Position numbers and translations under genes: made by a program
In this document: positions 11,081-26,740 of the stretch, in pieces
How the letters are laid out: each line of letters opens with the position of its first letter
Position numbering within the stretch: the stretch's first letter is position 1
Source: Octopus vulgaris
Taxonomy: Eukaryota
DNA length: 64,000 bases
Assembly: GCA_951406725.2 (NCBI GenBank)
Contig: OX597817.1
Coordinates: 108,500,001-108,564,000, forward strand
Direction of reading: 5' to 3'
The notes under the pieces: model-generated
Seen by the model: the letters and a program-made list of their open reading frames with translations, nothing else
What the model was told of the DNA's origin: nothing
Databases searched by the model: none

Positions 11081-11896
11081 GTCATTTGAGAAAATGCTGA
11101 ATATATATATATATATATATTGTACAAGATAAAGATGATATTTATTCGAACGCAGAATTGCCGTGCGAACAGCAGAAATACTAGGTAAAATTACCCTAAC
11201 AAAACCGTAGTCGTAGGGGATGTGAGTTCGAGCCCCAAGCCTGTTTGTTGAATAGTTTTTCCACAATGTAAGAGTAATTTCTTCAGCTTCTTTGCTGTTC
11301 AAACGGCAATTCTGCGTTCGAAAAGATATCGTCTTACTTGTGTCGTACAATGCACATTTCGACGCTTCAAAAAACAAATGTTAGTTTGTTTGTATTTACA
11401 AACACACACACGTTAGTAATAAATACATAGAGTATGTTGTCTATATACTCCAGACAATATTACTGTCCAGCGAAGCGAACTCGGAATTACCCATCTGAAA
11501 ATTTCACTGAATGACTGACGACTAATAGTAGTCACAGTCGATCGATGGGGTTAGCCGTAAACTGGAACCTAACAGATAGGGACCACGATATCCGCCCGGA
11601 TATATATATATATATATATATAATTAATTAATAAGGGTGAGAGAATTAGATACTAATTTAATAGTATATCTATTCAACACCAAGTGGCCTAGTGCTCCGA
11701 GAAACCTGGATTATTATAATATTTTATAATATATTATAATATTTTTACAAAATAAATATAAGAGAGTGGTCACTATATGGCTCACTCTAGCACTAGTTAA
11801 TCCAAAAGGTTTCAACCACAAAAATACATGTTTCCCATGAAAGTCAGTACGATTGTTAGCTCACACGGACAGGGCAAATAAAAAATAACAAAAATA

Positions 11897-11992
11897 CAGA
11901 TTATTTTGGGACAATTGTTTCGCTATTAATGAATTAAATGTAATTTTACTTACAAAAAAATCCACTTGTAGCTCGTCAGCCAAAACTATCTG
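11897..11992 (-). ncRNA. Minimal type I hammerhead ribozyme (left-arm copy)
   Basis: Reverse complement of the motif at 12616-12711. Confidence 0.85.
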
Positions 11993-12615
11993 GATGAAAT
12001 CCACTCAATCACACGCCAGATTTTACCATAACGATAAATACACGTGTGGTTCAATTGATTACATCCGACGTTATAATTCAAATGCCCCAACTAACAGCGC
12101 GCCAAACTTTCACGGAAAACAAATACTGCATTTAGAAATAAATGTAGCATAATTATAATTAATTAATAAGGATGAGAGAATTAGATACTAATTTAATAGT
12201 ATGTCCGTGTGAGCTAACAATCGTACTGACTTTCATGGGAAACATGTATTTTTGTGGTTGAAACCTTTTGGATTAACTAGTGCTAGAGTGAGCCATATAG
12301 TGACCACTCTCTTATATTTATTTTGTAAAAATATTATAATATATTATAAAATATTATAATAATCCAGGTTTCTCGGAGCACTAGGCCACTTGGTGTTGAA
12401 TAGATATACTATTAAATTAGTATCTAATTCTCTCACCCTTATTAATTAATTATAATTATGCTACATTTATTTCTAAATGCAGTATTTGTTTTCCGTGAAA
12501 GTTTGGCGCGCTGTTAGTTGGGGCATTTGAATTATAACGTCGGATGTAATCAATTGAACCACACGTGTATTTATCGTTATGGTAAAATCTGGCGTGTGAT
12601 TGAGTGGATTTCATC

Positions 12616-12711
12616 CAGATAGTTTTGGCTGACGAGCTACAAGTGGATTTTTTTGTAAGTAAAATTACATTTAATTCATTAATAGCGAAACAATTGTCCC
12701 AAAATAATCTG
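12616..12711 (+). ncRNA. Minimal type I hammerhead ribozyme (right-arm copy)
   Basis: Stem I ttttgg (12623-28) / ccaaaa (12699-704), extendable; core CTGACGA 12629-35; stem II gcta (12636-39) / tagc (12683-86); GAAA 12687-90; palindromic CAATTG 12691-96; GUC cleavage triplet ending at 12698. Confidence 0.88.
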
Positions 12712-12853
12712 TATTTTTGTTATTTTTTATTTGCCCTGTCCGTGTGAGCTAACAATCGTACTGACTTTCATGGGAAACATGTATTTTTGTGGTTGAAACC
12801 TTTTGGATTAACTAGTGCTAGAGTGAGCCATATAGTGACCACTCTCTTATATT

Positions 12854-12925
<72 letters not shown>

Positions 12926-23889: not shown

Positions 23890-26740
23890 TACGTTATAAG
23901 AAAAGATTTATTTGGAATAAAAGAGAATATCCGACTAGAGAAAGGAAAGTGTGGATCAAGCAGGAGGATAAGAAAAATGCAGCAGTTGAGGAAGGAAAAG
24001 TCCGACTTAAGAAAGCGATGGAGTTGTGCTGCACTAGATGAGAAACCTGGCCTTGCGCTGCTGTATAACAATTTGAAGAGGAATTGTCGTTATGTGCAAC
24101 GACATATCCGCCGATATGAGCGTCGAAAAGTAAAAGGACTCGGGGGCAGTTTCTGAAGGACCCGTACGGGTTTACTAAGAAGCTGTTCACTAAACCGAAG
24201 AGTTGTACTTTATCGTGCACTAAAGAAGAATTGGATACTCATATCAAGGAAACCTACAGCGATCCGCACCGTAACCAGCCGCTGCCACTTCTACATGGGC
24301 TAAATCATCTCTCAGGACCTGATATCGAATTCCAGATTGGGGACATCAGGGAGAGAGAGGTGAATGACTTCGTAAGAAAAGCTAGAGCAAAGAGTGCCCC
24401 AGGAGGTGATGGCGTCTCATATAAAGTCTACAAGTACTGCAATCGTCTGCGAAAGAAGCTCTTCGTCCTACTCCGACAACTGTGGCGCGAGGAGACTATA
24501 GTAGAGGATTGGTGTAAGGCAGAAGGTATATACCTGCCGAAAGAGGCCAATGCAAAGACCATAAAATAGTTTAGGCCGATATCCTTCTTGAATGTGGAAG
24601 GCAAGATCTTTATGGGAATTCTGTCGAGGAGAACAGTGGCATATTTACAGAGTAACGGATATGTTGATGAATCTGTTCAAAAGGCCGGAATCCCCGGGAT
24701 CCCTGGATGCGTTGAACACTGCTTTTCGATTTGGAAAGCGATCCAGGATGCCAAACAGAACAAGAAAAGTCTGAACGTGGTATGGCTCGACCTAGCTAAC
24801 GCGTATGGTTCATTGCCCCACAAATTACTAATAACAGCCATGGACCACTTCCACATTCCTGACAAAGTGATCAAAATAATGAGGATGTACTATGACAGTT
24901 TCGAAATGAGGTTTACAACTGGAAATTTTACAACAAATTGGCACCGATTGGAGGTTGGCATTGCTGCTGGCTGTACAATATCTGTCACGTGGTTTATCTT
25001 AGTCATGGAGTTGATTTTGAAAGGTGTAGATTTTTCGGAACAAATCGCCCATGTACAATCACCTAAGAAAGCCTTCATGGATGACGTGACACTTCTAGCT
25101 ACAGATAAACAAATCATGCAGAATGCCCTTTTGAGATTAGACGAACTTGTAAGGTGGTCAAGGATGCGATTTAGAGCAAAAAAGTCGCGTAGTCTGACAT
25201 TTGTTAAGGGAGTGCAGAAAGAATTTAAATTTCGAATATCTGAAGAAAGCATTCCAACAGTCAAGGAAGAGCCCGTCAAGAGCTTGGGACGAGTATACGC
25301 TGGAACATTGTCAGACAGAAGTCGTGGGATTGAAATTATGAAACAGGCCGAGGCTGGGTTATCAGCGATTGATAATTCGAAGTTACCAGGTAAATATAAA
25401 ATTTGGTGCTTGCAGTTCGGCTTGTACCCGCGACTTGCGTGGCCACTTTTAATATACGAAGTAGCATTGTCACGAGTTGAAAGGATTGAACAAAAATGTA
25501 ATGTGTTCATTAGAAAGTGGCTAGGCCTACCTCGTATGTTGAACAGCTCAGCTCTTTATCGTAAAAGAGGTTCGTTGCAGCTACCAATAGCATCAATAGT
25601 CGAAATATATAAGTTGGGGAAGATACGGACGGTCATGATGCTGAGAGAATCGAAGGATATGGAAATCAGGCGTAACCCACCAGAGGTGAAAACAGCCAGG
25701 AAGTGGAAAGCAGAAGCAGAAACTGACGACATCTTGTCTTCTCTTATACACAGAGATATGGTGGGAGCAACGCAGAACCATCGGAAAGTCTTGGTTTTGG
25801 CGCAGATCAGTTCAGACCGTTTGCAAGCATGATGCCGAGTGAACGCAGATCTGTTGTTAGCAACAGCGTCAAAACAAGAGAAGCAGAGAGAAGAGAGCTT
25901 CATTTGATCCGATGTGTTCATCAAGGTCAGATGACGAGATGGGAAGAACATGTTGTTGAGAGGAAGATAAGTTGGGATGAGATGTGGAAGTGGACGACAT
26001 CTCGGCTGAGTTTCCTGATTCGTTCATCTTATGATATTTTGCAATCACCTACGAATCTAGTAGGATGGAACGTCTTAGAGAATGACATCTGCAAATGTGG
26101 AAATGTCGGTACACTAAAACATATTCTTTCCATTAGCATTGAACAGGTACACATGGAGGCACAACTTGGTCCTTAAGGTTATCTTCAATGCTATAAAGAA
26201 CCAAATTCATCTCAACAACACTGAGGAAAAACCGTTAAAAGTACCATCAAGAGATTTCATTACCTTCGTGCGACCAGGTCAGCGGATCCGTTTCAAGAAG
26301 AAGATCAAGAAACTTCCTGAGAAAAATGAAAAGTGGAACGGCTATTGGGAGGTAACTGCAGATTTACTTGGGTGCCAGGTTTTCTTTCCCATCCCAGTTT
26401 TTTGATGTGGTGTGAAAGAAAGAAAGTTGTAAATATAGTCGAGCTAACGGTTCCTCATGAAGATAATATGGACGCCGCTCGGGCTCGAAAATTGAACCGT
26501 TATGAAAACCTCCTCGAGGAATGTGAAGACGCAGGCTGGAAAGCGGTACATTTTCCTATCGAAGTCGGATGTAGAGGGTTTGTTGGACACAGCGTGAGAC
26601 GACTGTTGTTATCGCTAGGCCTAACTCATCGTAAAGTCAATATCACCATGACTGATATCCAATCTACAGTGGAGAAGGCTAGCCACTGAATTTGGTTAAA
26701 AAGAGACGATGAGCGATGGCTAGAAGTATATTGAGTTCTT
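23890..26740 (+). pseudogene. Disrupted RT-RLE polyprotein
   Basis: ORF pieces 23842-24156, 24231-24569 and 24588-25832 (same frame, one TAG), 25829-26176, 26139-26405 and 26333-26689 join by frameshifts and stops into one protein. Confidence 0.85.

What the first reader, a model, noticed from the sequence alone, without database searches (positions are those of the whole stretch)
11621..12859. Young non-coding 535-bp ribozyme-bearing element inserted as head-to-head, greater-than-unit-length arms (retrozyme / Penelope-like parasite)
Seen: one 535-bp unit (period measured twice, 11621 to 12156 and 12203 to 12738) occurs as a 582-bp left arm and a 657-bp right arm in opposite orientation, starting at different phases. 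The ribozyme-sense 5' ends meet at 12202/12203 and the 3' ends run out into (TA)n. By eye I found one difference between copies (gggtgag versus ggatgag at 12172). There is no long ORF. Established: Penelope-like elements form tandem and inverted pseudo-LTRs carrying minimal hammerheads, and non-LTR retrozymes are non-autonomous hammerhead repeats that yield circular RNAs. Inference: both arms read through the unit boundary, so the template was a circle or multimer copied by an RT supplied in trans and primed at the AT-rich target. This would be a recently active circRNA-type retroelement family; I cannot tell from here whether it is already catalogued.
Basis: partly seen in the sequence, partly recalled or inferred. 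Interest (0 to 1): 0.88.

Follow-up and report, generated by a model that had tools for sequence, protein, structure and literature searches.

The report
Two-armed hammerhead retrozyme, Penelope footprint
This is one of over a thousand young copies of a 535-base protein-less jumping element with a predicted self-cutting RNA motif; its back-to-back arms end at two different fixed points, which likely records a Penelope-type enzyme copying one RNA, probably a circle, from both strands of the cut DNA.

Summary
The 535-bp unit has no ORF, carries a type I hammerhead whose stem I covaries across subfamilies, and has at least about 1,100 insertions in TA microsatellites. They fall at two fixed sites, A (unit 122) and B (unit 250), and head-to-head insertions pair one A with one B: 43 of 45 independent cases, none A-A or B-B. 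The two arms of an insertion share a haplotype (57 of 59 sites; 11% when permuted) and cross the ribozyme cut site without a scar. In 20 of 43 neither arm could be a copy of the other. This is the Penelope 'tail' footprint, at about 128 nt instead of 30-40. Best reading: a non-LTR retrozyme copied by a Penelope-like RT primed from both DNA strands at two sites on one, probably circular, RNA. Cleavage, circles, the helper and this junction in reads are unshown; three long arrays are mosaic. The class is known; I found this footprint on retrozymes in no paper searched. The scan noted it before for other retrozyme families in this genome.

The parts
11621..12202 (-). Left arm (B arm), 582 bp, unit positions 204-535 then 1-250
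   Evidence: one mismatch to the unit at 12172
12203..12859 (+). Right arm (A arm), 657 bp, unit positions 1-535 then 1-122
12202..12203 (.). Head-to-head junction of the two truncated 5' ends, one shared base
   Evidence: family junctions mostly overlap 0-3 nt (34 of 46)
12841..12859 (+). Site A: fixed 3' end at unit 119-122, inferred RT start site
   Evidence: 522 exact A-end matches genome-wide
11619..11643 (-). Site B: fixed 3' end at unit 248-252, inferred second RT start site
   Evidence: 886 exact B-end matches genome-wide
11621..11748 (-). 'Tail': the 128 nt between sites A and B, present at the end of the B arm only
   Evidence: compare PMC11167929
12615..12711 (+). Type I hammerhead, right arm: stem I 12622-12628 with 12699-12705, core CTGACGA 12629-12635, stem II 12636-12639 with 12683-12686 plus a long inner hairpin, GAAA 12687-12690, helix III closed by AATT, predicted cut after 12698
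   Evidence: z -4.5; 97% of cells paired, 3 pairs changed on both sides
11897..11993 (-). Same hammerhead in the left arm; core starts at 11979, predicted cut between 11910 and 11909
11600..11620 (.). Left (TA)n flank, part of the target microsatellite
12860..12923 (.). Right (TA)n flank, part of the target microsatellite

Best explanation
This is a young, protein-less, tandemly repeated 535-bp element with a predicted type I hammerhead (a non-LTR retrozyme), inserted in a TA microsatellite as two head-to-head arms ending at two fixed sites, and it was likely written by a Penelope-like RT-endonuclease that primed from both nicked DNA strands at those two sites on one, probably circular, RNA. 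Inferred steps: transcripts of tandem copies self-cleave at unit 496/497 and are ligated into a 535-nt circle; the enzyme (probably a dimer) nicks both strands of (TA)n; one 3'-OH starts cDNA at site A, the other at site B 128 nt downstream; each RT runs round the template displacing the other's cDNA and stops at a variable point; the two cDNA ends are joined with 0-3 nt of overlap, giving inverted arms. Single-arm copies (32 of 80) would arise when only one priming succeeds.
For: Shown: 43 of 45 independent two-arm insertions are A+B, 0 A-A, 0 B-B, 2 have a damaged end; 10 more A+B among 12 multi-arm loci of other subfamilies. Unselected check: 0 head-to-head B-B among 100 listed B ends, 0 A-A among 100 listed A ends, 27 of 54 A ends paired with a B end. 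Arms of one insertion differ by 0.39% against 1.42% between insertions; 57 of 59 polymorphic sites agree against 11% (max 28%) in 2,000 permutations; 21 variants private to one insertion are fixed in all its copies. In-register, out-of-register and within-arm differences are equal (0.30, 0.32, 0.29% without four long arrays), and L156 has 10 units with no substitution: a monomer amplified in one event. 51 of 63 A arms and 44 of 57 B arms cross the cut site, 3 of 122 5' ends lie at it, 190 of 196 crossings are exact. In 20 of 43 insertions, this one included, neither arm is contained in the other. Hammerhead stem I covaries; position 7 of the core is the most variable core site; circular fold z -7.9. 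114 of 124 3' flanks are TA-rich. Known: PAc cuts and extends both strands and starts at two internal sites that define the tail (PMC11167929); an intact young Penelope-like family in this genome shows the same one-long, one-short pairing in 3 of 3 head-to-head copies.
Against: No cleavage, ligation or circle is shown, and no run is on record as RNA. L031, L032 and L077 carry mosaic unit variants, and C30 and C3a share a variant between arms in register from the 3' end; a monomer circle alone does not give this. In PAc the uncleaved RNA was the dominant substrate and hammerhead mutants inserted normally. The unit has no significant similarity to the four Penelope-like families examined, so the helper is unknown. 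The tail is three to four times the published length. Core-breaking variants (U4C in 3 insertions, G8A in 2) were transmitted or fixed. Two RNAs from one source locus held by an asymmetric dimer would fit the A+B rule as well as one RNA.
Confidence: 0.65

Rival explanations
1. Same enzyme and same two start sites, but the template is an uncleaved linear multimer (or a multimeric circle) transcribed from a genomic tandem array, not a monomer circle.
For: Mosaic arrays L031 (period-4 pattern), L032, L077; variants shared in register in C30 and C3a. Inner ends of the two arms lie within 15 nt of the same unit position in 7 of 43 (2.4 expected, p about 0.01; four widths tried) and arm lengths correlate (rho 0.31, p 0.04), as if both RTs ran off one template end. 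PAc uses unprocessed RNA in vitro.
Against: No overall in-register advantage. Private variants fixed across all units and arrays of 10-13 near-identical units need a step that multiplies one monomer; linear copying with 5' truncation can only shorten arrays. The hammerhead is conserved with compensatory changes at 76% identity.
Confidence: 0.2
2. The inverted arm arises by fold-back (self-priming) on the first arm's cDNA, and tandems grow later by unequal crossing-over at the DNA level.
For: Self-priming was proposed for rotifer Penelope inversions (PMC3846280). A few junctions are near-symmetric or lie in the AT palindrome (C30, L068, L069). Mosaic long arrays suit later DNA exchange.
Against: In 20 of 43 insertions neither arm is long enough to have templated the other. 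Fold-back does not predict that the copy ends exactly at the other fixed site. Most junctions are not palindromic.
Confidence: 0.07
3. The unit is simply the pseudo-LTR of an autonomous Penelope-like element, left as truncated pieces, with no life of its own.
For: Same order of parts as in Penelope-like elements (hammerhead upstream of the start sites), same target and tail. Li et al. 2026 found 24 of 57 Xenopus retrozyme families homologous to TE ends.
Against: Pure 535-bp tandems of up to about 13 units. No Penelope ORF joined to an arm in about 100 loci; the fragments found nearby are separate insertions. A 76%-identical subfamily keeps the same ORF-less organisation. No similarity to four local families.
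Confidence: 0.05
4. Assembly fold-back or chimera.
For: This junction was not among the listed contig pieces in four read sets.
Against: The arms are not mirror images; the same rule holds at dozens of loci; five other B-arm/A-arm inversion joints stand in two other runs (X3, X4).
Confidence: 0.01

Closest known systems
Metazoan non-LTR retrozymes (Cervera and de la Pena 2020, PMC7229834, passages seen; de la Pena review PMC7761336, passages; Li, Clavereau and Pollet 2026, 10.64898/2026.07.22.740005, parts 1-3 of 5 read)
   Same: Non-coding low-GC tandem repeat, one type I hammerhead per unit with a 2-bp helix III and tetraloop as in invertebrate examples, highly self-paired fold, co-occurring Penelope-like elements, longer-than-unit copies as their model predicts.
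   Different: Unit is 535 nt (170-400 nt in the 2020 paper; within the 51-972 bp of the 2026 preprint). Stem II carries a ~45-nt inner hairpin. Those papers, in the parts I saw, describe no fixed priming sites, tail or head-to-head arms for retrozymes ('inverted' occurs 0 times in PMC7229834).
Endonuclease-bearing Penelope-like elements: PAc/Poseidon (PMC11167929, parts 1-2 of 4 and passages), Adineta Penelope (PMC3846280, passages), Neptune/Nematis/Naiad (PMC8557442, passages)
   Same: Partial tandems, inverted 5'-truncated copy head to head, tail at one end only, two internal start sites, AT or (TA)n target, hammerhead upstream of the start sites.
   Different: No RT-GIY-YIG ORF; tail about 128 nt (about 105-110 in the diverged subfamily) rather than 30-40; arms run for many units; full rather than minimal hammerhead.
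Non-autonomous Chlamys elements such as MRC1 (PMC8557442, one passage)
   Same: Non-autonomous Penelope-type elements with multicopy head-to-tail insertions.
   Different: They lack canonical hammerheads and resemble their autonomous partners at the 3' end; no such partner was found here.
L1 twin priming (recalled, no paper read)
   Same: Second nick primes internally on the same RNA and gives an inverted arm.
   Different: In L1 the first primer is at the poly(A) end, the second site is variable, and the arms do not overlap; here both sites are fixed and the arms overlap by more than a unit.

Membership tests
Non-LTR retrozyme | Type I hammerhead in each unit | tested here: met
   Complete core and three stems; covariation in stem I. 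Rfam models do not detect it.
Non-LTR retrozyme | Tandem copies, dimers to multimers | tested here: met
   Arrays up to about 13 units elsewhere. In this window each arm holds only one hammerhead, so this locus alone fails Li et al.'s two-consecutive-units rule.
Non-LTR retrozyme | No protein coding, GC under 50% | tested here: met
   Longest stop-free frames 48 and 87 aa, GC 31.6%; 63 and 67 aa in the diverged subfamily.
Non-LTR retrozyme | Monomer of 150-450 bp (2020 description) | tested here: not met
   535 and 503 bp; inside the 51-972 bp range of the 2026 preprint, so not treated as excluding.
Non-LTR retrozyme | Highly self-paired predicted RNA | tested here: met
   Circular fold z -7.9 and -4.7 against 40 shuffles each; consensus of 161 pairs, 6 with a change on both sides.
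Non-LTR retrozyme | Self-cleavage in vitro | not testable with these tools
   Only 1 of 9 predicted Xenopus elements cleaved in Li et al., so prediction is not proof.
Non-LTR retrozyme | Expressed as circular RNA | tested here: inconclusive
   Four runs guessed to be RNA cover the whole unit; X11 holds it as one 565-nt contig closing on itself. Low-coverage DNA of a tandem repeat would look the same.
Non-LTR retrozyme | No LTR, primer-binding site or polypurine tract; TSD over 4 bp when present | not tested
   No primer-binding-site search was run; a TSD cannot be read inside (TA)n.
Penelope-like insertion footprint | Inverted 5'-truncated copy, head to head | tested here: met
   48 of 80 loci have two arms, all head to head.
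Penelope-like insertion footprint | Two fixed 3' ends, tail at one end only | tested here: met
   43 of 45 A+B; 0 A-A, 0 B-B.
Penelope-like insertion footprint | Tail of 30-40 bp | tested here: not met
   About 128 bp here; a local autonomous family has 35 bp.
Penelope-like insertion footprint | AT-rich or (TA)n target | tested here: met
   114 of 124 3' flanks.
Autonomous Penelope-like element | RT plus GIY-YIG ORF | tested here: not met
   None in the unit or joined to an arm.
Pseudo-LTR of a local Penelope-like family | Sequence similarity to the end of an autonomous element | tested here: not met
   Four families examined, from 150 of 6,136 GIY-YIG candidates scored plus one found by chance; a rarer parent is not excluded.

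The most novel reading that the evidence does not exclude
A 535-nt circular RNA is copied by double rolling-circle reverse transcription: one Penelope-like dimer holds a single circle, its two subunits obligatorily take different start sites 128 nt apart, each primes from one strand of the cut TA repeat, and both chase each other round the circle. The RNA shares no detectable sequence with any local autonomous element, so it would be recognised by structure, as a viroid-like parasite of the Penelope machinery. The same two-site, two-strand rule would explain the tail and the inverted and tandem pseudo-LTRs of all Penelope-like elements.
Probability: 0.4. Interest if true: 0.75.

Novelty: new variant of a known kind. 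Interest (0 to 1): 0.52.

Why it matters
How retrozymes get back into the genome, and how Penelope-like elements make their tandem, inverted and tailed insertions, are both open; Craig et al. 2021 name the second as the next task. This family gives over a thousand young natural products with an internal haplotype barcode. They yield a sharp rule (one A plus one B, one template, arms longer than the unit) and a small defined RNA, so the dimer and circle models can be tested directly in the existing in vitro system. It would also show that a Penelope-type enzyme can use start sites about 128 nt apart on an RNA unrelated to its own, which bears on using such enzymes to write DNA from circular RNA.

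Tried and rejected
Rfam: 0 hits at gathering score over the window; 5 weak hits, none a hammerhead, over the element. Helper search: family 1 (781-aa RT+GIY-YIG, 4,708-bp unit, 35-nt tail, TA target) has no BLAST similarity to the unit and no canonical hammerhead by my scan; family 2 scored 102.5 against a shuffle maximum of 108; family 3 nothing; family 4 (4,472-bp unit, single 3' end in the loci seen) nothing. A short-stem hammerhead pattern gave 16 matches (2 control), no parent. Template jumping between linear monomer ends: rejected, no indel at the cut site. I first read L052, L083, L084 and L082 as a re-transposed composite; they are segmental duplicates and were counted once. Empty site: the left flank is an older repeat whose paralogues do not continue into the right flank. 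No RNA holder listed on record. One search listed no piece over this junction; contigs cannot show absence. Sequence look-up in earlier findings was blank. The supplement of PMC7229834 could not be read and may list this family or its relatives; Repbase and Dfam could not be searched. Rows dropped: redundant overlapping loci among L001-L030, the detached 101-bp piece in L038, 8 nt at each arm end in variant counts, and L031, L032, L033, L077 in the second divergence figure (both figures given).

Full report
Observation. The element is as described. Numbering the unit from window 12203, the right arm runs 1-535-122 on the + strand (657 bp) and the left arm 204-535-250 on the - strand (582 bp), with one difference at 12172. 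There is no ORF. Both outer ends enter (TA)n. The window lies on contig C4 of a 2.8-Gb animal genome; that it is an octopus is my inference, not a tool result.

Ribozyme. Each unit holds a type I hammerhead: core at 12629, a four-pair stem II extended by a long hairpin, GAAA, a two-pair helix III closed by a palindromic tetraloop, and a predicted cut after 12698. The 93-nt region folds at z -4.5, although its minimum-energy fold pairs part of the core. Across 15 distinct variants 97% of cells pair and three stem I pairs change on both sides; the sequences are related, so these are few events, and one stem I pair is broken in 5 of 15. Position 7 of the core, which is free in hammerheads (recalled), is its most variable site. 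Rfam misses the motif. The whole unit folds as a circle at z -7.9.

Family. A 26-mer has 1,053 exact matches, the hammerhead pattern 2,180, the exact B end 886 and the commonest A end 522; with about half of A ends paired this gives at least about 1,100 insertions. Copies nearest this one are 0.9% from their majority; subfamilies lie at 91-98% and one at 76% with a 503-bp unit, all ORF-less with the same ends. Twenty public runs from 13 studies and several coded organisms hold part of the stretch, 16 of them half its words or more.

Architecture. Of 80 loci (40 best-scoring, 40 from the start of the 26-mer list), 48 have two arms, all head to head, and 32 one arm (19 ending at A, 13 at B). Four are segmental duplicates of one event, leaving 45: 43 pair an A end (unit 119-122) with a B end (248-252), 2 have a damaged end, none is A-A or B-B. 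Twenty loci of other subfamilies add 10 A+B, one damaged, one three-piece and 8 single. Because the 26-mer could miss short B-B pairs, I checked the end lists: 0 of 100 B ends and 0 of 100 A ends face their own kind within 15 kb, while 27 of 54 A ends face a B end. Inner ends are scattered. Five further inversion joints at other phases stand in two other read sets; this junction itself was not among the pieces listed.

One template. Arms of one insertion differ by 0.39% in register and 0.45% out of register, against 1.42% between insertions; at family-polymorphic sites 57 of 59 agree, against 11% on permutation. Twenty-one private variants are fixed in every copy within their insertion. Most long arrays are star-like: L156 has no substitution in 10 units, L150 has 11 singletons and one shared site in 12. 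Most arms cross the predicted cut (95 of 120), almost no inner end lies there (3 of 122), and no indel marks it, so the template was not a linear monomer. In 20 of 43 insertions neither arm could have templated the other. Against a pure monomer circle: L031, L032 and L077 are mosaic, C30 and C3a share in-register variants, and inner ends coincide somewhat more than expected (7 of 43 within 15 nt, p about 0.01). Multimers probably serve as templates at times, or arrays recombine later.

Mechanism. Shown: fixed ends, pairing, shared haplotype, over-length arms, TA target. From the literature: the anole element PAc cuts and extends both strands, starts at two internal sites whose spacing is the tail, and is predicted to be a dimer, though in vitro the two strands showed no difference in start site; the tail is found at one end only and inverted copies are head to head; retrozyme circles are proposed to give longer-than-unit cDNA through Penelope RTs. 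Inferred: self-cleavage, ligation, twin priming on one RNA, strand displacement (these RTs lack RNase H, recalled) and end joining. I put retrozyme mobilised by a Penelope-like enzyme at about 0.9, twin priming on one RNA at 0.75, and the whole with a monomer circle as the usual template at 0.65.

Helper. The genome has several TA-targeting Penelope-like families. Family 1 (781 aa, RVT_1 and GIY-YIG; nearest Atlas clusters carry HTH_animal and GIY-YIG; the CxxC linker points to Neptune or Nematis by the description) is young, has two ends 35 nt apart and pairs them in 3 of 3 head-to-head copies, so it is the best candidate on behaviour. It shares no detectable sequence with the unit. Family 4 is very abundant and young but showed one end only. 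The helper remains unidentified.

Novelty. The class is known. Six searches found no paper describing this family, or the tail and twin-arm footprint on a retrozyme; the library omits most subscription papers and one key supplement was unreadable. Earlier notes of this scan report the same footprint for 360-, 485-491- and other units in this and other genomes; my reading was fixed before I saw them and I did not check their data. Verdict: a real, young retrozyme family; a new variant of a known kind, valuable mainly as a test case for Penelope mechanism. Interest 0.52.

Noticed in passing
window 24570-25832 (+): 420-aa open frame with an RVT_1 match (E 1e-16); no hit with the Penelope-like proteins, so probably another non-LTR retrotransposon.
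   Followed up: partly
window 11121-11345: Short element bounded by inverted repeats of about 50 bp, MITE-like, just left of the finding.
   Followed up: no
window 11442-11600: Older dispersed repeat (221 candidates, 73-86% identity) whose end abuts the TA tract that took the insertion.
   Followed up: partly
L124 1748-6455 and relatives L121-L133, L140: Intact young Penelope-like family, 4,708-bp unit, 781-aa RT+GIY-YIG frame preceded by a 479-aa frame, 35-nt tail, TA target, no canonical hammerhead found.
   Followed up: partly
L189 3904-8375 and L177-L200: Very abundant Penelope-like family (25,242 candidates, 99-100% protein identity among 107 scored), 4,472-bp unit, single 3' end, no inverted arms in the loci seen; by eye a minimal hammerhead with a variant core lies about 110 nt upstream of the end.
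   Followed up: partly
L176 477-1606: Another hammerhead-bearing repeat with the same palindromic helix III, arranged as repeated mirror images about TA tracts; part of it resembles sequence downstream of the Penelope-like ORF in L137 (by eye).
   Followed up: no
L032 2743-8219: Ten-unit arm in which five units carry a core G8A change, mostly alternating with intact units, as a dimer with one dead ribozyme might give; other sites and the opposite arm do not follow the period.
   Followed up: partly
L031 1195-7333: Twelve-unit arm with a four-unit higher-order pattern of variants.
   Followed up: partly
L052, L082, L083, L084: Four copies of one insertion within a segmental duplication on C1, about 99% identical over 4.8 kb for L052 and L083.
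   Followed up: yes
L061, L063, L077 (unit position 428): A lineage with U4C in the hammerhead core that still produced new multi-unit insertions.
   Followed up: no
run X20 laid on window 12203-12737: Summed contig depth on the unit is 20 to 200 times that of X19, a run of similar size from the same coded organism; both are only guessed to be RNA.
   Followed up: no
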